IMG/VR virus record: IMGVR_UViG_2609459803_000002
Location: 1-12,160 of that record
Strand: one strand, 5' to 3'
Length of the DNA stretch: 12,160 nucleotides
DNA from: a virus
Taxonomy: Duplodnaviria; Heunggongvirae; Uroviricota; Caudoviricetes
In this document: in pieces, positions 125 through 11,403 of the stretch
Position numbering within the stretch: the stretch's first letter is position 1
Layout: each line of letters begins with the position of its first letter
Made by a program: the position numbers and the translations under genes
The notes under the pieces: model-generated
Seen by the model: the letters and a program-made list of their open reading frames with translations, nothing else
Databases searched by the model: none
Told to the model about the DNA's origin: nothing

Positions 125-763
125 TTACACCCCTATAGCGATATAACGACCTAATACAGCGTTTGCAGCAGTCGCTATGCTTGAAAAACCGCGGAACTGA
201 TTTGATGTAATTGCAGAAGCCGACAGGATTCCTGCGCCTGAAGGTGTATGCCCCACATGACTAACTATCATTCCATAACATGCTGACGGAAAGGCAAAAG
301 GAAAATCGTTAAGATATCCGGCATCTTCACCACCAGACCCACCAAATCTCGCCTGCCCCCACTGAATAATCAGTGTTCTCCGGGAACCTGAAATAATTAA
401 CGGGATCGTTACATACCCATTCAGGCCAATGACACCAGATGCAGTGCCAGCCAGAGATAATTCTCCCAAACCAAGGTTTTCGAGAGCCGTTTTCACGGTG
501 CCATCCGATTTGATATCGCCAAACGGATTCTTGCGGCTTAACAGCAGCGCACGAAGCGCGGTAAGCAGCTGGTCGTGTTGCGCCTTCTCCAGACTAGCAC
601 CGGATGCCTCCACCACGCTGCAAAGCTCCTCCTGCAACATGTCAAAGTAGTCATCATCCAGATCGGTAGCAGGCGTGCCAGTCTGGGGGTTACCACGGGT
701 AAAACCGTTTTTACCCGCGCCGAACTTATCCTTCTGCGCGGTTTTCGTGTCTATACGATGCAT
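125..763 (-). CDS. Phage tail fiber protein, short (212 aa)
   Basis: ORF-track protein ([22 protein letters not shown]...) with Gly/Ser-rich C-terminal half, GGAG ribosome-binding site 6 nt upstream of the ATG, and a tightly coupled tfa-like gene immediately downstream. Family assignment is by context and recall, not by search. Confidence 0.55.
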
Positions 764-1574
764 GGATTACTCCGGATACCGAACCGTTGAGCATCTCGAT
801 AACTTCCCGCCGCTTGTCGTAGCACGGCCCCTCAATGTTGTACCCGGCGGTGGTGATGGCCCACATCAGTGGCTGACGTCGCGCGCCCATCCCGGTAAGC
901 ATCGTGGTATAAAGCGCATCGGTGGCGTGCTCGTGATATTCATCCACCACGGCACAGTGGGGTGATGAACCATCACCGGGGTTACCGATCAGCGGTTCAA
1001 ACCGCGCGCCATCCTCCGGACGGTTCATGTTTGAGGCGTTAACCTCAATCCCGAACGCTTCCGTCAGCATGGGTGTGCGTTTACACATCAGTCGCGCCGG
1101 GCGAAAGACTTCCCACGCCTGTTTCTCTGTCGTGGCACCGGAATACACTTCCGCGCCAAACTCGTTATCACAGGCAAAACAATACAGGGCAACACCGGCA
1201 GAGATTGCCGATTTGCCGTTCTTACGGGGGATTTCGGTATACACCTCCCTGAAGCGGCGCAGCCGGGAGCCTTTATTGACCCAGCCAAACGCACAGCAGA
1301 TCACAAAGAGCTGCCACGGTTCCAGCGTGATGGGCATCCTCTTGAATGCCCACTCCCCCTTGGTGTGTGGCAACAGCTGAATAAATTTCGCGGCCCGTTC
1401 AGCCAGGTCCTTGTCGAAGCGGTAACGAAACGACTTACTTTTTTCCGCCATCAGGTCATCAAGATGGCGCTGGCAGGCCTGAATCACAAACTGGCAGGCC
1501 ACAATCTTTCCGCGCACGACATCACGGGCATACTGATTGGCAGCATTTACGTTGGGGTAAGATTTCCGGCTCAT
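726..1574 (-). pseudogene. Large terminase subunit, N-terminal ATPase domain only (3'-truncated remnant of a roughly 550-aa HK97-type protein)
   Basis: Walker A-like IPRKNGKS and Walker B-like CAVVDEYHE motifs are present. The ORF stops at 282 aa, shortly after the ITTAG motif, with no nuclease domain in any frame; the next gene is the tail fiber. Start overlaps the TerS stop, as is typical. Confidence 0.75.
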
Positions 1575-2611: not shown

Positions 2612-3370
2612 TTATTTTTTCTTCTTATTTAACTTATCTAAATTGACGGGATCTTTCCCTGTGGCAGCTAAACACCAAAAAGAATAACTCTTTTGCATGA
2701 CATAGGTTCTAATTCTCTCTAATGTTTCATTATATTTTTTCTCAACAACCTGTATCGCATGTTCAAATAAATTAATCATATCAACATGCTCGTCCTCGAC
2801 ACCAATCATGCTCAGTTGTTTTCTATCTGTCACTGCTTGATAAAATGTTTTCCCATTTTTCCTTATTAGTAACAATGAAGTTTCTGCTGACTCATAGTCT
2901 TGGTTGCCGCTATGTGCTGCAAAATTATGCCTGTAGTTAATAATACAGTCATGCAACCCAAAATATTCAGAATCAAGCCAATCACGCTCCATCTTTAACT
3001 TTCTCCCTTTAGCTTCAGAGAAAGCTTTACCATAAAACGTTAGGCTTGCCACAAATAACGCTCTAATTTCACTTGATAAATCTAGATCAAGTATATTCCC
3101 GTATAACTTGCCATCTGTCCTTAATTCGTTTCTCCCTGCCAGTTCATTAGCTATTTGGTACCACTCTTTAGCACTTTTTAAGTCCCTATGAATTAGTGAC
3201 AGTGAAGATGCTCTATCGGCAATACGCCCACTCAATTTTATGCGATCTACAATTTCATTATTGAATGTATAAACCGCTTTAAATTCCCCCGTTTCGGAAT
3301 CAATATAATATTCAACATCTAACCCTTCATATGATTCACACCCGGGACCTTCTAATTTTTTTCTTTTCAT
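2612..3370 (-). CDS. Hypothetical cytoplasmic protein (252 aa), AT-rich cargo gene with an Rx5H motif (possible HEPN-like abortive-infection or toxin protein)
   Basis: Long clean ORF in a visibly AT-richer stretch. Start taken at ATG 3370..3368 (M9 of the ORF-track protein, whose first codon is TTG). Motif YRHNFAAH lies within an otherwise unassignable sequence; no signal peptide or membrane segment is evident. Confidence 0.6.
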   Translation of the reverse strand: MKRKKLEGPGCESYEGLDVEYYIDSETGEFKAVYTFNNEIVDRIKLSGRIADRASSLSLIHRDLKSAKEWYQIANELAGRNELRTDGKLYGNILDLDLSSEIRALFVASLTFYGKAFSEAKGRKLKMERDWLDSEYFGLHDCIINYRHNFAAHSGNQDYESAETSLLLIRKNGKTFYQAVTDRKQLSMIGVEDEHVDMINLFEHAIQVVEKKYNETLERIRTYVMQKSYSFWCLAATGKDPVNLDKLNKKKK

Positions 3371-3451
3371 ATAGAATATCCATATACGTTTCAATTCTCA
3401 GTCAGCATAGTAGAAAAAAAAGATGTCCAGATCCATACATCGAAAGCAATT

Positions 3452-5175: not shown

Positions 5176-6171
5176 ATGTTTGAGCAGCGTAAAGCCCTGT
5201 ATGCGCAACTGGAACAAGCACGCAATTCAAAAGTATTATGCTATGTAACAGGTGATAGACCAAACCAAGAAGCTCAAATCAGCGCTGATGTATTCGATCT
5301 GTTCGTCAATCATCTTGATGTGATAGGTGATGTTCAAAAAATTAGCCTCGTGCTCTATACGCGAGGCGGCGACACTTTAACAGCATGGAGCCTTGTAAAC
5401 CTGCTTCGTCAGTTTTGTAAAGAACTCGAAATCATAATCCCATCAAAATGCCATAGTTCTGGGACGATAATGTGCCTTGGCGCGAACAACTTGGTTATGA
5501 CCAAGCAGGCAACCTTAGGGCCAATCGATCCAAGTGTGAATACACCACTTAACCCTTCGGCCATAATCAATGGGCAGCCACTTCAACTTCCAGTCAGTGT
5601 TGAAGAAATCAATGGCTATCTTGAAGTAGTTAAGCATGATTTGAGTATCAAAGATGATGCCTCACTTGCACAGATCCTCCTTGCATTAAGTGAAAAGGTT
5701 CATCCCTTGGTACTTGGAAAAGTCTATCGAGCTAAAGCGCAGATTCAAATGCTCGCAAGAAAACTACTGTCTCACCAACTCACTGATAGTGAAAGCATTG
5801 AGAAAATTGTAAGTTTCCTTTGTAGTGATTCTGGTAGCCATGACTACACTATAAATAGGATTGAAGCGGTAAACGATTTAGGTCTTACGGTGGAAAAACC
5901 AGATGAGCACCTTTACGGTCTGATCAAAGAAATTTATGAAGATTTCAAAACTGAGATGCATCTGGGTGAACCTTTTGACCCAAATGCTATCTTAGGAACA
6001 GTTAACCAGGCATCGTACGTATCTGTCAGAAGCATTTTAGAGGCTCCAGACACGTTTTCATATCAATTCCGCACTGAGGGGATGTTACAGCGTTTTCAAG
6101 TTCCAGGCGTCCCAGGTCAGTTCGGCATAAATCATAACCTTATCTCAGAGGGGTGGGCTCGACATGGATAA
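5176..6171 (+). CDS. ClpP/crotonase-fold serine peptidase (SppA / S49 / SDH-proteinase-like), cargo gene
   Basis: AAGGA ribosome-binding site 7 nt upstream of ATG 5176. Segment LVLYTRGGDTLTAWSLVNLL ... IIIPSKCHSSGTIMCLGANNLVMTKQATLGPIDP matches the GG ... (A/S)SxGT ... TLG.I core of ClpP/SppA-fold peptidases. Opposite strand to and AT-richer than the flanking phage genes. Confidence 0.7.
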   Translation: MFEQRKALYAQLEQARNSKVLCYVTGDRPNQEAQISADVFDLFVNHLDVIGDVQKISLVLYTRGGDTLTAWSLVNLLRQFCKELEIIIPSKCHSSGTIMCLGANNLVMTKQATLGPIDPSVNTPLNPSAIINGQPLQLPVSVEEINGYLEVVKHDLSIKDDASLAQILLALSEKVHPLVLGKVYRAKAQIQMLARKLLSHQLTDSESIEKIVSFLCSDSGSHDYTINRIEAVNDLGLTVEKPDEHLYGLIKEIYEDFKTEMHLGEPFDPNAILGTVNQASYVSVRSILEAPDTFSYQFRTEGMLQRFQVPGVPGQFGINHNLISEGWARHG

Positions 6172-8575: not shown

Positions 8576-8875
8576 TCAGGCGGCTGCACCCGCCGTTTTC
8601 TCGTACTTACTGATAGTGATCTCGACCTTCCCTTCCGGGATAACCGGTCCCCACTCCACCAGCATTCTTTTCACCTGACTGTCGTCTTCCCACACACCCG
8701 CGTGGGTCAGGGCGTCAAACAGCGCCTTGTTATAGTTGTCCAGATCGCGGATCCGGTTACAGGAAGCGCAATCAGTTGCGAGCGACGGTAGTGTGTTGTT
8801 AAACTGTTCATGCGTTAGTTTCTCCACAGTCACGACACGCCACGGCGCCCGGAGCTGCACACTCGCGGGCGTCAT
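8576..8875 (-). CDS. rusA: RusA-like Holliday junction resolvase
   Basis: RIRDLDNYNKALFDALTHAGVWEDDSQV matches the RusA catalytic-aspartate region (RRDLDN...FDAL...DD). Start taken at the first in-frame ATG (8875); this gives a shorter N-terminus than recalled RusA and overlaps the upstream gene by 68 nt. Confidence 0.6.
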   Translation of the reverse strand: MTPASVQLRAPWRVVTVEKLTHEQFNNTLPSLATDCASCNRIRDLDNYNKALFDALTHAGVWEDDSQVKRMLVEWGPVIPEGKVEITISKYEKTAGAAA

Positions 8876-9404
8876 TACTTTCTGAAATGCAAAAGATTTT
8901 GTAGACCAGTGCTGCATGCTCCTGCAGCTTCGAAATTGAGAGATACAGCTCGTCGTTAATTGCTGTCTTCTCATGCGGTTCCACCACACCGTCTTCGATT
9001 GCCGAACGAATCTGTCTGGAATAACTGCCAATCTGTTCAATGACTTCCAGCAGGCGCTGGTTAATATCGGCGTTGTCCACATCCTCGACGTCAGGAAGAG
9101 ACACAAAGACGCCATTTGCAGACTGCGCCACAGCGTCAGCAATGAAGTGAGTTCCACCAGCACGTTGCAAAATCATTGCCCATCCCAGCGGGAAAATCTG
9201 ATCGCCATCGGCACGAAGGCGGTTAAATAATGCGTTTTCTGTTACATCCAGCCAGTCAGCTGCTTCAGCGTAACCACCCGGCAACGCTGCGATAGTTTTT
9301 CTGACAGCTTTCACGTACCACTCAGGCTGTTTTTCTACTTTCCAGTGATGCTTACCCACGGTTAGCCTCATCGTTCTGTGGTTTCTGTTAATCGATTTAT
9401 CCAT
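8808..9404 (-). CDS. CII-like regulatory protein (phage 186 CII / e14 YmfL type)
   Basis: Central segment YAEAADWLDVTENALFNRLRADGDQIFPLGWAMILQRAGG parallels the helix-turn-helix region recalled for phage 186 CII. Lies directly after cro. Start is ambiguous (ATGs at 9416, 9404, 9371); 9404 overlaps the cro stop as ATGGATAA. Confidence 0.5.
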   Translation of the reverse strand: MDKSINRNHRTMRLTVGKHHWKVEKQPEWYVKAVRKTIAALPGGYAEAADWLDVTENALFNRLRADGDQIFPLGWAMILQRAGGTHFIADAVAQSANGVFVSLPDVEDVDNADINQRLLEVIEQIGSYSRQIRSAIEDGVVEPHEKTAINDELYLSISKLQEHAALVYKIFCISESNDARECAAPGAVACRDCGETNA

Positions 9405-9597
9405 TAGATTTTTCATAAAGCTCAGGTTTAAATGGCAACCGTCCGCAAGTTCTATATGCAGCTTCTGCTGCACGTCCTTTTGGAATTAACTGGCCCGGAC
9501 GGTTTCGCCACTGATAAACGGCTTCAGTTGTTATGCCGAAAAAAGCAGCAACTTTCTCAATACTGCCGAAGTAGCTTTCGATATCGTCAGTTGTCAT
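9397..9597 (-). CDS. Cro-like small helix-turn-helix regulator
   Basis: 66 aa, divergent from the repressor across a 97-bp operator region; GGAGG ribosome-binding site; sequence VAAFFGITTEAVYQWRN is consistent with a helix-turn-helix. Confidence 0.6.
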   Translation of the reverse strand: MTTDDIESYFGSIEKVAAFFGITTEAVYQWRNRPGQLIPKGRAAEAAYRTCGRLPFKPELYEKSNG

Positions 9598-9694
9598 ACG
9601 CCCTCCAAACTAAGTTTTATTAGATGCTAATTACAAATCTATCTTTGGTCAATAAAAACTAAGATTACTTAGCAATTCAAGAAATGGTGCTCCT
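9598..9694. promoter_or_regulatory. Divergent promoter/operator region of the immunity switch
   Basis: Minus-strand promoter candidate TTGACC (9652..9647) -17 nt- TAGCAT (9629..9624) for cro. Operator-like palindromes CTAAG-ATTA-CTTAG (9659-9672) and CTAAG-TTTT-ATTAG (9610-9623) flank it. Confidence 0.5.
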
Positions 9695-10321
9695 ATGGAA
9701 ACGGTTGGTCAGCGTATAAAAGCTCTGAGAAGAGTTACCGGAACGTCCCAGAAAGAATTGGGTAAATTTTGTGGAGTAAGCGACGTTGCTGTGGGGTACT
9801 GGGAGAAAGACATCAATACCCCTGGTGGGGAGGCACTTTCGAAATTAGCGAAGTTCTTCAATACGTCAATAGATTACATTCTTTATGGTGCTGAGTTTGA
9901 AGGCAAACTCGTCACAAACATGCGCAGAGTTCCTGTAATATCGTGGGTTCAGGCTGGGCAGTTTACTGAGTGCAGGGCAGCAGAAGTGTTTAGTGAAGTG
10001 GACAAGTGGGTAGATACATCATTAAAGATTGGTGATAACTCATTTGCATTAGAGGTTAAAGGTGACTCCATGACTAACCCTAATGGCCTCCCAACAATAC
10101 CAGAAGGCGCAACAGTGATTGTAGATCCAGATGCAGAACCTCGTCATGGAAAAATAGTCATCGCTCGACTTGATGGAACAAACGAAGCTACAGTAAAAAA
10201 ATTAGTCATCGATGGCCCTCAAAAGTTTTTAGTGCCATTAAATCCTCGGTATCCCAACATCCCTATCAATGGTAATTGCCTTATCATTGGTGTAGTCAAA
10301 GGAGTTCAATACGAACTCTAA
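9695..10321 (+). CDS. cI-like prophage repressor (N-terminal helix-turn-helix plus C-terminal LexA-like S24 autopeptidase domain)
   Basis: N-terminal QKELGKFCGVSDVAVGYWE helix-turn-helix; Ala-Gly cleavage site in VQAGQF; catalytic Ser in KGDSM and Lys in TVKKL. Confidence 0.9.
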   Translation: METVGQRIKALRRVTGTSQKELGKFCGVSDVAVGYWEKDINTPGGEALSKLAKFFNTSIDYILYGAEFEGKLVTNMRRVPVISWVQAGQFTECRAAEVFSEVDKWVDTSLKIGDNSFALEVKGDSMTNPNGLPTIPEGATVIVDPDAEPRHGKIVIARLDGTNEATVKKLVIDGPQKFLVPLNPRYPNIPINGNCLIIGVVKGVQYEL

Positions 10322-10343
10322 GACCTCTCTTCTCTAACTAAGG

Positions 10344-10376
10344 CACCGAACTAAGAAAAGTTTGGTGTTTTCTCTT
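10344..10376 (+). terminator. Intrinsic terminator downstream of the repressor gene
   Basis: CACCGAACT (10344-10352) pairs with AGTTTGGTG (10359-10367), 9 bp including one G-U, loop AAGAAA, followed by TTTTCTCTT. Confidence 0.5.
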
Positions 10377-10403
10377 GCCATAATAACTAAGTTAAGTTAG
10401 ATT
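10375..10403 (+). promoter_or_regulatory. Sigma70-like promoter candidate with overlapping operator-like palindrome
   Basis: TTGCCA (10375-10380) -17 nt- TAGATT (10398-10403). CTAAG-TTAA-GTTAG (10386-10399) sits in the spacer and resembles the operator motif next to cro. Confidence 0.3.
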
Positions 10404-10527
10404 TTATATCAAAGATAACGAACAGGCAGGACGCCCACGAAGTAGCCGCCTGGGGAATATGAAGTCCAGGATGATTCGTTGAGTCATGTTGTGCCACCAG
10501 GCACTCATGTTAAAGCAGGTGTATGAA

Positions 10528-10803
10528 ATGAAAGTCCAGATTTTAAACAATAACTGTGAAGTCGTTTGGTCATACGACATAGCCGCCCCTGTAGATCAGA
10601 GCGGCGATAGCTGGACCAATGGGAAACATCAGATTATGGCTGGAGTTGTGTTCTCTTTACGCCGTGCTTTGGAACAGGCTGAAGTATTTCCATCAGACCC
10701 TGAATGGAAATGGCCTTTTTCTATTTGTCCAAATTCGGAGAGCACATTTCAGAAAATTGGTCAGAAAGTCGCACTCGAAGAGCATCAGCCAACTGTTTCC
10801 TGA
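10528..10803 (+). CDS. Hypothetical protein (91 aa), first gene outward from the repressor's far side
   Basis: Start at ATG 10528 with AGGTG 8 nt upstream (the ORF track starts at 10486). Not arginine-rich, so not an obvious N-like antiterminator. 3' end overlaps the convergent minus-strand ORF. Confidence 0.4.
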   Translation: MKVQILNNNCEVVWSYDIAAPVDQSGDSWTNGKHQIMAGVVFSLRRALEQAEVFPSDPEWKWPFSICPNSESTFQKIGQKVALEEHQPTVS

Positions 10804-10966
10804 TTTTTTCAGGTAACTCGTCGGCATCGCAGAAACAACAACGCTCGATCATGTTGAAAGCCGATTCGTAGAACTGTTTCTGCTGAGTGTCGCTGAGACA
10901 GGAAAAGAGCGACGTTACGATGATTTTATTAATTGCATTATCAAGTTCTTTTTCATCAAAAGTCAT
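10721..10966 (-). CDS. Hypothetical small protein (81 aa, Cys-containing CCFCDADE segment)
   Basis: AAGGA ribosome-binding site 8 nt upstream of ATG 10966; plausible charged, helical composition; convergent with and overlapping the 3' end of the 10528-10803 ORF by 83 nt. Confidence 0.5.
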   Translation of the reverse strand: MTFDEKELDNAINKIIVTSLFSCLSDTQQKQFYESAFNMIERCCFCDADELPEKIRKQLADALRVRLSDQFSEMCSPNLDK

Positions 10967-11220
10967 TTGATTTTCCTTTTATGTATACGGGCTTAAAAGG
11001 ATACCACCGAGCCTGAAGTGGTGAAAAGACAGGCACATAACAGCTAAGTATTTTCAACCAGAGAGAATCCTTAGCGTTGTGGTGAATGCGGCTCAGCGCA
11101 CGCGGGTTAAGGTTGAGGCTGACAGTCGACCTTCTGTAGATACCCACCCGCCTGGTGTGCAACCTTCGCCAGGCACCGGGAGGCACCCGGCACCACAACT
11201 TTATGCTGTGTGTAGTCCTG

Positions 11221-11267
11221 GCGGTACCAGTTTGTACCCTTGCTTCCGGCTGGTACCGCTCTTTTTA
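11221..11267 (+). terminator. Terminator-like hairpin inside the GC-rich noncoding island
   Basis: GCGGTACCAG (11221-11230) pairs with CTGGTACCGC (11250-11259) around a 19-nt loop, followed by TCTTTTT. Confidence 0.35.
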
Positions 11268-11403
11268 CAAAACAGAGAAGAGCATCACCGGACGACGGGC
11301 TCATAAACCAATCCATCCGGGCGGCTGCCACCGCAGGTGTTCTTCTCTGTTTTGTGGAGAAACTAATCGGCCTTGCAGGGTCGATATGATGAGGAGCAGC
11401 AAA

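What the first reader, a model, noticed from the sequence alone, without database searches (positions are those of the whole stretch)
10528..10966. Convergent, 3'-overlapping pair of small ORFs next to the repressor
A 91-aa plus-strand ORF and an 81-aa minus-strand ORF each have a credible ribosome-binding site and overlap by 83 nt at their 3' ends. Convergent overlap implies mutual antisense transcription, as in some toxin-antitoxin and exclusion loci. The position next to the repressor is where lambda carries rexAB and sieB, its own exclusion genes. Neither product has a recognisable family signature.
Basis: partly seen in the sequence, partly recalled or inferred. Interest (0 to 1): 0.45.

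Follow-up and report, generated by a model that had tools for sequence, protein, structure and literature searches.

The report
Conserved tail-overlapping prophage gene pair
Two small genes of unknown function on opposite DNA strands of an E. coli prophage really do overlap at their ends, and both are conserved across enterobacterial prophages; they sit where phage lambda has its N and sieB genes, an arrangement likely to make their expression mutually exclusive.

Summary
The + ORF (10528-10803, 91 aa) and the - ORF (10966-10721, 81 aa) both have Shine-Dalgarno sites and overlap by 83 nt.

Both are real genes. In at least seven diverged lineages (E. coli/Shigella, Klebsiella, Salmonella, Yersinia and unnamed ones) both homologues occur together, convergent and overlapping. 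Substitutions peak at third codon positions of the + frame in the + only part and of the - frame in the - only part. A 42-nt core (10741-10782) shows no periodicity and the least divergence, as expected for true dual coding. Public annotations call only one ORF or the other.

Operator-like repeats and a promoter-like site (10375-10403) lie just after the cI terminator. The + gene is therefore probably the first gene of the repressor-controlled early-left operon, and the - gene runs antisense to that operon. This is lambda's N/sieB geometry, not the rexAB position.

The pair is a swappable cassette. At least five unrelated convergent pairs, including e14 ymfJ/ymfI, fill the same slot. Their leftward genes share a conserved upstream element.

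No terminator separates the two genes, so excludon-like mutual antisense control is likely but unproven. Protein function is unknown and no toxin-antitoxin features were found.

The parts
10528..10803 (+). + gene, 91 aa (phrog_3195; SfV orf33; WP_021563905). The conserved ~84-aa domain ends at ...VALE (about 10779). The last residues are an unconstrained tail.
   Evidence: Third-position substitution bias in the + frame. Diverged homologues P0040 and P0051-P0058. SD conserved in function across lineages.
10721..10966 (-). - gene, 81 aa (phrog_3311; WP_000141753). Predicted three-helix, acidic, soluble protein.
   Evidence: Third-position bias in the - frame. Homologues in Klebsiella, Yersinia and Salmonella and in every locus that carries the + gene. 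AF2 secondary structure at low confidence. pI and hydropathy.
10741..10782 (.). True dual-coding core (14 codons) that encodes the conserved C-terminal segments of both proteins on opposite strands. It is flanked by 10721-10740 (+ frame constrained, - tail free) and 10783-10803 (- frame constrained, + tail free).
   Evidence: Divergence by codon position is flat (0.33/0.30/0.32) and the mean (0.32) is the lowest of all segments. + pos3 lies opposite - pos2, so no silent sites exist.
10340..10371 (+). Terminator hairpin of the cI transcript (stem-loop followed by TTTTCTCTT).
   Evidence: RNAfold gives -15.1 kcal/mol. Sequence. The consensus scanner did not list it.
10375..10403 (+). Putative PL with OL: promoter-like TTGCCA-17-TAGATT overlapped by an operator-like 21-mer (10380-10400) that matches the two OR repeats at 9603-9623 and 9652-9672.
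   Evidence: all 5 AACTAAG sites in 12 kb lie in OR or here; 1.4 expected; family D1. SfV and e14 show the same logic with different operator sequences.
10417..10480 (+). Conserved structured leader shared by heteroimmune phages (SfV, e14, ST64B, sal3, Yersinia, Klebsiella). It forms the left border of the swappable cassette. Function unknown.
   Evidence: Compensatory pairs (ACGAA/TTCGT versus GCGAA/TTCGC; CCTGG/CCAGG versus CCGGT/ACCGG).
10967..11035 (-). Conserved upstream region of the - gene. It holds an SD-pairing hairpin (10974-11001), the palindrome ACCAC-N11-GTGGTA (11002-11022) and TGCCTGTCTTTTC (11023-11035). It could be a promoter (extended -10-like TGGTATCCT), an operator, or a 5' UTR. 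Which one is unresolved.
   Evidence: 1 match; 0.01 expected; same element upstream of unrelated leftward genes including ymfI; cognate stems longer than non-cognate; 94/20000 permutations.
9695..10321 (+). cI-type repressor (HTH_3 + Peptidase_S24). Context only.
11046..11268 (+). STnc100/PasD-like sRNA region with a strong terminator hairpin (11220-11259 followed by a T-run). It forms the right-hand neighbour of the cassette.
   Evidence: 44.8 bits; gathering score 47; E=3.6e-07. Searches (I17; -21.2 kcal/mol).

Best explanation
What it is. The region holds a conserved two-gene cassette of SfV/e14-like lambdoid prophages. Both ORFs encode real small acidic cytoplasmic proteins. They are fused tail-to-tail, and about 14 codons are read on both strands.

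Inferred layout. The + gene is the first gene downstream of the repressor-controlled early-left promoter (PL/OL, about 10375-10403). It should be silent in the lysogen and made immediately on induction or infection. The - gene is transcribed towards PL from its own conserved upstream element. That element is shared with unrelated leftward genes (e14 ymfI and others), and the - gene is probably outside repressor control.

Inferred mechanism. No terminator lies between the genes, so each transcript must run antisense through the other. When PL fires, RNA polymerase collisions and double-stranded RNA should switch the - gene off while the + protein appears. In the lysogen, - transcription should oppose leaky PL read-through. 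This is an excludon-type either/or switch with the geometry of lambda N/sieB.

Protein function is not established. The likeliest role is a prophage accessory pair: a leftward gene for exclusion, defence or host modulation, plus an early lytic partner.

Shown: both genes are real, they are conserved together, the overlap anatomy is as described, operator-like repeats and a promoter-like site precede the + gene, the region is a swappable cassette, and no terminator-like site was found between the genes.
Inferred: promoter activities, antisense interference, and the biological role.

Step confidences: both genes real 0.95; + gene PL-controlled 0.7; antisense or interference coupling 0.5; exclusion or defence role 0.25.
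For: Both frames coding:
- Codon-position substitution patterns and dN much lower than dS in each single-coding part.
- Synonymous variants make up about 40% of polymorphisms in each single-coding part, and no stop codons occur among point variants in about 100 copies.

Co-conservation:
- The + gene family search reached 35-68% identical relatives.
- In all loci fetched from the + side (L008, L176, L179, L180, L181, L182) a - homologue lies convergent and overlapping by 137-173 nt.
- In all loci fetched from the - side (L186-L190) the + homologue is present.

PL upstream of the + gene:
- Operator repeats and a promoter-like site follow the cI terminator.
- SfV and e14 have the same layout with their own operators.

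Expression of the same slot in e14:
- ymfJ, the + gene there, is induced late in SOS together with intE and ymfM (PMC11002266).
- ymfJ belongs to the YmfT iModulon with xisE and intE. ymfI does not (PMC12132413).
- ymfI-ymfJ is listed as a convergent excludon from RNA-seq (PMC12288877).

Architecture:
- No terminator-like site was found between the genes on either strand.
- At least five unrelated convergent pairs occupy the same slot, sometimes in tandem, and most keep the same upstream element before the leftward gene.
- Lambda N and sieB are convergent and abut.
- P22 sieB is controlled by the antisense RNA sas (PMC12197685 and PMC7067206).
Against: - There are no expression data for this pair. 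The promoter of the - gene is not identified. The best candidate has only 4/6 + 4/6 hexamer matches and conflicts with the SD-pairing hairpin being transcribed.
- Co-inheritance is partly forced by the physical overlap, so it does not prove a functional partnership.
- The overlap as a whole is no better conserved than the flanks (0.42 versus 0.40 and 0.43). Only the 42-nt core is.
- In six of seven lineages the + frame runs 30-40 codons further with no coding signal. ORF overlap length therefore overstates the functional overlap.
- In e14, ymfI also rises modestly late in SOS (log2 1-2), which does not look like strict exclusion.
- No defence, exclusion or toxin family is matched. Structure models are too poor to use (pLDDT 48 and 58).
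Confidence: 0.6

Rival explanations
1. Incidental compaction. Both genes are real but functionally unrelated. The tail overlap is a frozen accident of mosaic phage genomes and has no regulatory consequence, for example because the two promoters are never strong at the same time or because transcripts end by Rho.
For: - The C-terminal tails of both proteins are weakly constrained, and most of the ORF overlap in other lineages is non-coding read-through.
- Overlaps in other cassettes range from 4 to 63 nt.
- Physical overlap by itself explains the co-inheritance.
Against: - The same convergent design recurs in at least five unrelated gene pairs at this slot, and a shared element precedes the leftward gene.
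- The 42-nt dual-coded core has been kept in all lineages despite 40% or more nucleotide divergence.
- The e14 pair shows overlapping transcripts.
Confidence: 0.25
2. Toxin-antitoxin or abortive-infection pair in which one product, or its antisense RNA, neutralises the other.
For: - Two small genes are always found together.
- Antisense overlap resembles type I systems.
- The slot is a cassette hotspot of the kind often filled by defence genes.
Against: - Neither protein has a hydrophobic or membrane segment typical of type I toxins (maximum 19-aa hydropathy 0.9).
- No antitoxin-like DNA-binding domain or known toxin fold was found in Pfam, PADLOC or NCBIfam.
- The genes are convergent, not co-transcribed as in type II systems.
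- Prophages survive with the - gene frameshifted and with the + gene deleted (BE2-5). Neither loss is obviously lethal.
Confidence: 0.08
3. Only one ORF is a gene and the other is an antisense shadow ORF. This is what every public annotation implies, since each calls only one of the two.
For: - SfV and two PGAP genomes annotate only the + ORF.
- vB_EcoM-720R4 and UPEC 26-1 annotate only the - ORF.
- Antisense frames of genes are often open by chance.
Against: - Each ORF has its own non-overlapping part with third-position substitution bias in its own frame, and stops in all other frames.
- Each has diverged protein homologues with conservative replacements and conserved starts and SD sites.
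Confidence: 0.03
4. Immunity-operon genes of the rex type (co-transcribed with cI), or an N-like antiterminator in the case of the + gene.
For: - The pair lies close to cI.
- The + gene sits where lambda N sits.
Against: - A terminator and the OL/PL-like site separate cI from the + gene.
- The + protein is acidic and has no arginine-rich N-terminus (and the sequence).
- Sister phages with the same backbone replace it with unrelated genes, and ST64B has no annotated gene in the slot and no similarity to the cassette there. An essential antiterminator role is therefore unlikely.
Confidence: 0.03

Closest known systems
Lambda N / sieB (and P22 gene 24 / sieB with the sas antisense RNA)
   Same: - The geometry is the same: repressor, OL/PL, first early-left gene, then a convergent gene ending tail-to-tail against it.
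- In P22, sieB is prophage-expressed (PMC10461980 abstract). Its translation is switched by the antisense RNA sas (PMC12197685 and PMC7067206).
   Different: - There is no sequence similarity to N or SieB.
- SieB is a membrane protein (from my own knowledge). The - product is small, acidic and soluble.
- Lambda N and sieB abut without overlapping. Here 83 nt overlap and 42 nt are truly dual-coded.
- The + product lacks N's arginine-rich motif.
Excludons (convergent genes with overlapping transcripts), including e14 ymfI-ymfJ and Rac sieB-ydaF in E. coli K-12
   Same: - It is a convergent pair with no terminator-like site between the genes.
- The e14 pair occupies exactly the same slot, between the same conserved leader and the same upstream element.
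- The e14 pair is listed as an excludon from RNA-seq (PMC12288877).
   Different: - Classical excludons overlap in long UTRs. Here the coding regions themselves overlap.
- Transcript overlap and mutually exclusive expression have not been measured for this pair.
- The proteins are unrelated to YmfI and YmfJ.
Face-to-face promoter interference in temperate phage switches (coliphage 186 pR/pL)
   Same: A strong lytic promoter would converge on a weaker promoter, so transcriptional interference is the expected outcome (general principle; PMC5001618 is listed but was not read in detail).
   Different: - Here the promoters are about 600 bp apart with two ORFs between them, compared with about 60 bp in phage 186 (from my own knowledge).
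- The pair is an accessory cassette, not the lysis-lysogeny switch itself.
Prophage accessory or defence loci next to the repressor (BTP1 bstA; ST64B STMMW_20121 type morons)
   Same: - It is a swappable, slightly AT-rich cassette (GC 0.42 versus 0.48 for the window).
- It lies beside the immunity region and carries a gene antisense to the lytic operon. PMC7067206 describes that signature for accessory loci.
   Different: - No homology to any PADLOC defence model.
- No phenotype is known.
- It has two overlapping genes rather than one.

Membership tests
PHROG families phrog_3195 (+ gene) and phrog_3311 (- gene), both of unknown function | Full-length profile match | tested here: met
   E=3.8e-65 (positions 8-98 of 98) and E=1.2e-55 (positions 1-81 of 81).
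Excludon | Convergent neighbouring genes with no terminator between them, so that transcripts must overlap | tested here: met
   The coding regions overlap by 83 nt. No terminator-like site lies between 10438 and 11003 on either strand.
Excludon | Overlapping antisense transcripts observed, with mutually exclusive expression (RNase III dependence) | not testable with these tools
   Only indirect evidence exists: the e14 ymfI-ymfJ pair in the same slot is listed as an excludon. ymfJ, but not ymfI, belongs to the repressor-controlled regulon.
SieB-type superinfection exclusion | Gene convergent to, and ending against, the first gene of the PL operon | tested here: met
   Lambda layout. Window layout.
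SieB-type superinfection exclusion | Sequence or profile similarity to SieB, and a membrane-protein character | tested here: not met
   No Pfam or PHROG hit to SieB. No hydrophobic segment.
SieB-type superinfection exclusion | Aborts lytic growth of superinfecting phages | not testable with these tools
   Needs plaque assays.
RexAB-type immunity-operon exclusion | Located between cI and OL/PL and co-transcribed with cI | tested here: not met
   The cI terminator (10340-10371) and the operator-bearing promoter-like site (10375-10403) lie upstream of the pair. Compare lambda.
Type II toxin-antitoxin | Co-directional bicistronic operon with a DNA-binding antitoxin and a recognisable toxin fold | tested here: not met
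   The genes are convergent. No domain hits in Pfam, NCBIfam or PADLOC.
Type I toxin-antitoxin | Small hydrophobic toxin peptide repressed by a non-coding antisense RNA | tested here: not met
   Both strands encode conserved soluble acidic proteins.
Lambda N-type antiterminator (+ gene) | Arginine-rich N-terminal RNA-binding motif, and an essential conserved presence in the phage backbone | tested here: not met
   The N-terminus is MKVQILNNNCEVVW and the pI is 4.95. Sister phages replace the gene with unrelated ones, and ST64B has no annotated gene in the slot.

The most novel reading that the evidence does not exclude
The slot between PL and the STnc100-like sRNA of SfV/e14-like prophages across Enterobacterales may be an unrecognised hotspot of modular 'convergent-pair' cassettes. 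Each cassette would combine two parts. One is a leftward effector gene for defence, exclusion or host modulation, driven by a shared structured upstream element (the ACCAC...GTGGTA palindrome plus an SD-pairing hairpin). The other is an overlapping partner gene driven by PL. On induction, the PL transcript would silence the effector by antisense and also make a protein that counteracts it, giving self-immunity. The in-frame ClpX zinc-finger fusion to the + domain in one lineage hints that the partner could act through ClpXP-directed proteolysis.
Probability: 0.15. Interest if true: 0.75.

Novelty: new variant of a known kind. Interest (0 to 1): 0.5.

Why it matters
1. Annotation. Every public record examined calls only one of these two genes, yet both are under purifying selection. 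Prophage annotations therefore systematically lose one member of such pairs. The Klebsiella phage ST405-OXA48phi1.2 record also lacks its leftward gene.

2. Overlapping genes. This is a clean natural example of antiparallel coding overlap, with 14 codons constrained on both strands and kept across genera. It is useful for studying how overlapping genes evolve.

3. Prophage biology. At least five unrelated pairs share the same design and the same upstream element at the N/sieB-equivalent position. This suggests a general, testable either/or expression module that links lysogeny-phase and induction-phase accessory functions. The slot is also a defined place to look for new exclusion or defence genes and their counter-genes.

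Tried and rejected
Searches that gave no function:
- Pfam, PADLOC, NCBIfam and PDB sequence searches gave no significant family for either protein.
- AlphaFold2 models were of low confidence (pLDDT 47.7 and 57.9).
- Foldseek of the - model against PDB gave nothing below E=2.6. No fold search was run for the + model because its confidence was too low.

Searches that found nothing or were uninformative:
- Two scans of representative genomes found no relatives. One broad alignment was too diverse to seed a scan.
- Viral-contig scans returned only near-identical copies. These served for polymorphism counts but not for divergence.
- Several apparently distant protein hits (P0037, P0043, P0050, P0017, P0020) turned out to be frameshift or mosaic variants and were not used as evidence.

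Comparisons that came out negative:
- The window pair was compared with the proteins of the other cassettes. No similarity was found.
- O157:H7 Sakai Sp1 was checked in the hope of using published EHEC translatome data. It carries a different cassette.

RNA structure of the - gene upstream region:
- RNAalifold on the MAFFT alignment recovered only a 5-bp hairpin with one compensatory pair, because the alignment puts the 3' arms out of register.
- The SD-pairing hairpin therefore rests on single-sequence folds and a cognate versus non-cognate test. It is only suggestive.

Promoter of the - gene:
- The TTTTCA-18-TATCCT candidate with TG was considered. It falls below the scanner threshold and conflicts with the hairpin being transcribed. 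This is left unresolved.

Literature:
- No paper mentions the protein accessions.
- The e14 analysis paper is not held, and no supplements are held for the ExcludonFinder paper.
- One ymfI hit could not be located in the text of the paper.

Full report
**1. The observation**

The window is part of an SfV/e14-like lambdoid prophage of E. coli. It carries:
- a cI-type repressor at 9695-10321 (+),
- a P22-Cro-like gene at 9397-9597 (-),
- a CII-like gene at 8808-9473 (-),
- a Q antiterminator, lysis genes and terminase further left,
- yfdP and yfdQ to the right.

The + ORF ends at 10803. Its 91-aa form starts at ATG 10528. The - ORF runs from 10966 to 10721 (81 aa). The overlap is 10721-10803, or 83 nt. 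AGGTG lies 6 nt before ATG 10528, and AAGGA lies 7 nt before ATG 10966.

Public annotation is split:
- SfV (orf33) and PGAP in strains H1827/12 and FRIK2455 call only the + ORF.
- vB_EcoM-720R4 and PGAP in UPEC 26-1 call only the - ORF.

PHROGs consequently holds a family for each ORF.

**2. Both frames are coding**

The cassette is nearly invariant in E. coli and Shigella. About 100 distinct prophage copies carry 36 point variants and none creates a stop. More diverged copies were therefore needed.

A word-indexed protein search found one truly diverged + homologue, P0040. Its contig, L008, proved to be of the Klebsiella variicola type. It carries both ORFs, collinear with the window and without indels.

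Comparison of the window with L008:

| Segment | Frame | Differences at codon positions 1/2/3 | p | dN |
|---|---|---|---|---|
| + only part | + | 17/7/37 | 1e-5 | about 0.21 |
| - only part | - | 14/4/30 | 2e-5 | about 0.21 |

dS is saturated in both cases, and every other frame is interrupted by stops.

An exhaustive HMMER search with the + alignment found further relatives at 35-50% identity. Six more loci were then fetched. In each of them a - homologue lies convergent and overlapping.

A profile search from the - side found homologues annotated in Klebsiella, Yersinia and Salmonella. In all five loci inspected the + homologue is present on the other strand, although it was not called there.

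**3. Anatomy of the overlap**

Five lineages are collinear over the 439 nt from the + start to the - start. Mean pairwise divergence by codon position:

| Segment | Frame shown | Positions 1/2/3 | Reading |
|---|---|---|---|
| 10528-10720 | + | 0.35/0.26/0.60 | + frame coding |
| 10721-10740 | + | 0.48/0.43/0.73 | + frame still constrained; - tail free |
| 10741-10782 | either | 0.33/0.30/0.32 | no periodicity; lowest overall divergence (0.32) |
| 10783-10803 | - | 0.31/0.41/0.77 | - frame constrained; + tail free |
| 10804-10966 | - | 0.43/0.25/0.60 | - frame coding |

The + third position lies opposite the - second position. The 42-nt core therefore has no silent sites, and its flat, low divergence is the signature of real dual coding of about 14 codons.

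In the other lineages the + frame stays open for 30-40 more codons, giving overlaps of 137-173 nt. That extension shows no + frame signal and is incidental read-through.

**4. Where the pair sits**

All five AACTAAG heptamers in the 12-kb window lie either between cro and cI or just downstream of cI (1.4 expected). A 21-nt operator-like repeat occurs at 9603-9623, 9652-9672 and 10380-10400. The last copy overlaps a promoter-like site, TTGCCA-17-TAGATT, at 10375-10403. That site follows a -15 kcal/mol terminator hairpin at 10340-10371.

SfV and e14 have a different repressor and different operator repeats, but the layout is the same. Their repeats lie directly before the point where homology to the window resumes, at 10417.

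The + gene is thus most likely the first gene of the repressor-controlled early-left operon, and the - gene is antisense to that operon.

The lambda record shows cI-rexA-rexB-OL/PL-nutL-N, with sieB on the opposite strand ending exactly against N. The window pair therefore corresponds in position to N/sieB, not to rexAB.

**5. A swappable cassette with a recurring design**

Alignment with related prophages gives the cassette borders at about 10481 and 11003. The left border is a conserved, structured leader (10417-10480) with compensatory base pairs. On the right lie a conserved element and an STnc100/PasD-like sRNA.

Other phages carry unrelated pairs in this slot, with the same convergent, tail-overlapping design:

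| Phage or locus | Pair | Overlap |
|---|---|---|
| e14 | ymfJ / ymfI | 63 nt |
| vB_EcoM-689R6 | 68 aa / ECs1072-family 144 aa | 29 nt |
| Salmonella phage 118970_sal3 | one pair | 38 nt |
| Klebsiella phage ST405-OXA48phi1.2 | one pair; the leftward gene is unannotated | not measured |
| L142 | second pair, in tandem | 39 nt |
| L176 | second pair, in tandem | 4 nt |

The proteins of the different cassettes show no similarity to one another.

Upstream of most of these leftward genes lies the same element, TGCCTGTCTTTTCACCAC-N-GTGGTAT. In the second pair of L176 and in 689R6 it is missing or truncated. The palindromic motif used in the search occurs once in the window (0.01 expected) and always on the strand of the leftward gene.

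The bases just after GTGGTA can pair with the SD region. Cognate stems are longer than non-cognate ones (6.4 versus 5.4 bp; 94 of 20000 permutations). RNAalifold on the automatic alignment did not recover this hairpin. Whether the element is a promoter, an operator or a 5' UTR remains open.

**6. Expression evidence, by analogy only**

In K-12 e14, ymfJ occupies the + position.
- It is induced late in the SOS response together with intE and ymfM (PMC11002266).
- It belongs to the YmfT iModulon with xisE, intE and ymfH. ymfI does not (PMC12132413).
- ymfI-ymfJ is listed as a convergent excludon from RNA-seq, as is Rac sieB-ydaF (PMC12288877).
- In ST64B, features downstream of cI are expressed under inducing conditions (PMC7067206).

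No data exist for the window's own pair.

**7. The proteins**

Both are small, acidic (pI 4.95 and 4.56) and have no membrane segment.

The + family has an ~84-aa domain with invariant Trp, Gly and Pro positions. In one lineage, L181, it is fused in frame to a ClpX-type C4 zinc finger (Pfam 30.3 bits). In UPEC 26-1 a separate zinc-finger ORF lies directly upstream.

The - family is predicted to be a three-helix protein.

No known family, defence model or solved structure matches either protein. The structure models are unreliable.

**8. Most likely mechanism and its rivals**

Shown:
- two real genes, always inherited together, partly dual-coded,
- no terminator-like site between them,
- operator-like repeats and a promoter-like site upstream of the + gene,
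- a shared upstream element before the - gene.

Inferred:
- The - gene is transcribed independently of the repressor, and the + gene only when PL is derepressed.
- Convergent transcription then gives either/or expression through polymerase collisions and RNase III cleavage of duplex RNA. This resembles an excludon, or P22 sieB with its sas antisense RNA.
- The biological role is a guess: a prophage accessory function with an early lytic partner.

Rivals:
- The main rival is that the overlap is a frozen accident without regulatory meaning.
- Toxin-antitoxin, rex-like, N-like and single-gene readings each fail at least one tested feature. The membership table gives the details.

**9. Novelty and limits**

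The genes themselves are already in databases as hypothetical proteins, and convergent arrangements at PL are known. New here are:
- the demonstration that both frames are selected,
- the conserved antiparallel dual-coding core,
- the recurrence of the same design, with a shared upstream element, for unrelated pairs across E. coli, Shigella, Klebsiella, Salmonella and Yersinia prophages.

Limits:
- All regulatory statements are inferences from sequence and from the e14 analogue.
- The number of independent diverged lineages is small (7-8).
- Several lineages come from unnamed metagenome or read-archive assemblies.

Noticed in passing
window 11046-11268 (+): STnc100/PasD-like sRNA region (RF02076, 44.8 bits, just under the gathering score of 47; E=3.6e-07), ending in a strong terminator hairpin (about 11220-11259 plus a T-run). 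PGAP annotates a 'frameshifted hypothetical protein' here, and K-12 annotates ymfH. Both are probably spurious ORFs lying over an RNA gene.
   Followed up: partly
window 10417-10480 (+); also L001, L003, L008, L172, L174, L175, L176, L181: A conserved ~65-nt element lies just downstream of the putative PL and is shared by heteroimmune phages. It has an outer stem and an inner hairpin, both supported by compensatory changes. Rfam has no match. It could be a nut- or put-like site, or a processing or termination site for the leftward transcript. In the Yersinia-type locus L176 it lies between two tandem cassettes.
   Followed up: partly
window 10974-11035 (-); also upstream of ymfI in K-12 (L172 2002-2022), Klebsiella L173, Salmonella L174 and L142 (two copies): The element TGCCTGTCTTTTCACCAC-N(8-12)-GTGGTAT precedes unrelated leftward genes in several genera and is nearly identical in sequence. 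Its arms are invariant while the spacer varies, which looks more like a protein-binding palindrome or promoter than an RNA stem. A second hairpin can pair with the SD.
   Followed up: partly
L181 101-661 (+); L006 1590-1793; L142 2143-2364: A ClpX-type C4 zinc finger is fused in frame to the + gene domain in one lineage. In others it is encoded as a separate small ORF upstream of the cassette, directly upstream in UPEC 26-1. This may hint at a link to ClpXP.
   Followed up: partly
L142 2424-2825; L176 3613-4103; L003 2270-2882; L174 1941-2660; L173 2088-2467: Further unrelated convergent pairs occupy the same slot, sometimes two in tandem. The leftward gene of the Klebsiella phage ST405-OXA48phi1.2 pair is not annotated in its record.
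   Followed up: partly
window 125-1574 (-): The prophage appears defective. The large terminase ORF holds only the ATPase domain (282 aa) and abuts a gene with a tail-fibre gp53-like C-terminal domain. Most morphogenesis genes therefore seem to have been deleted.
   Followed up: partly
window 5176-6171 (+): A 331-aa ORF with a ClpP-like SDH-type serine protease domain lies on the opposite strand to the flanking lysis and Q genes. This is a moron-like position.
   Followed up: no
window 2612-3394 (-): A 260-aa ORF with very low GC (0.35) and no Pfam match lies between the HNH endonuclease and the lysis genes. It may be another accessory insert.
   Followed up: no
window 10404-10580 (-): The 58-aa ORF annotated as a hypothetical protein in vB_EcoM-720R4 lies over the conserved leader and the start of the + gene. 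It is probably not a gene, because its conserved peptide stretch simply mirrors the conserved leader sequence.
   Followed up: partly
L143, L168 (window-equivalent 10933) and L166 (10923): Two independent 1-nt deletions frameshift the - gene early in three viral contigs, while the + gene stays intact. Protein databases also hold frameshifted variants of both genes, including a 46-member cluster (P0017) shifted at the A6/T6 run at 10804-10809.
   Followed up: partly
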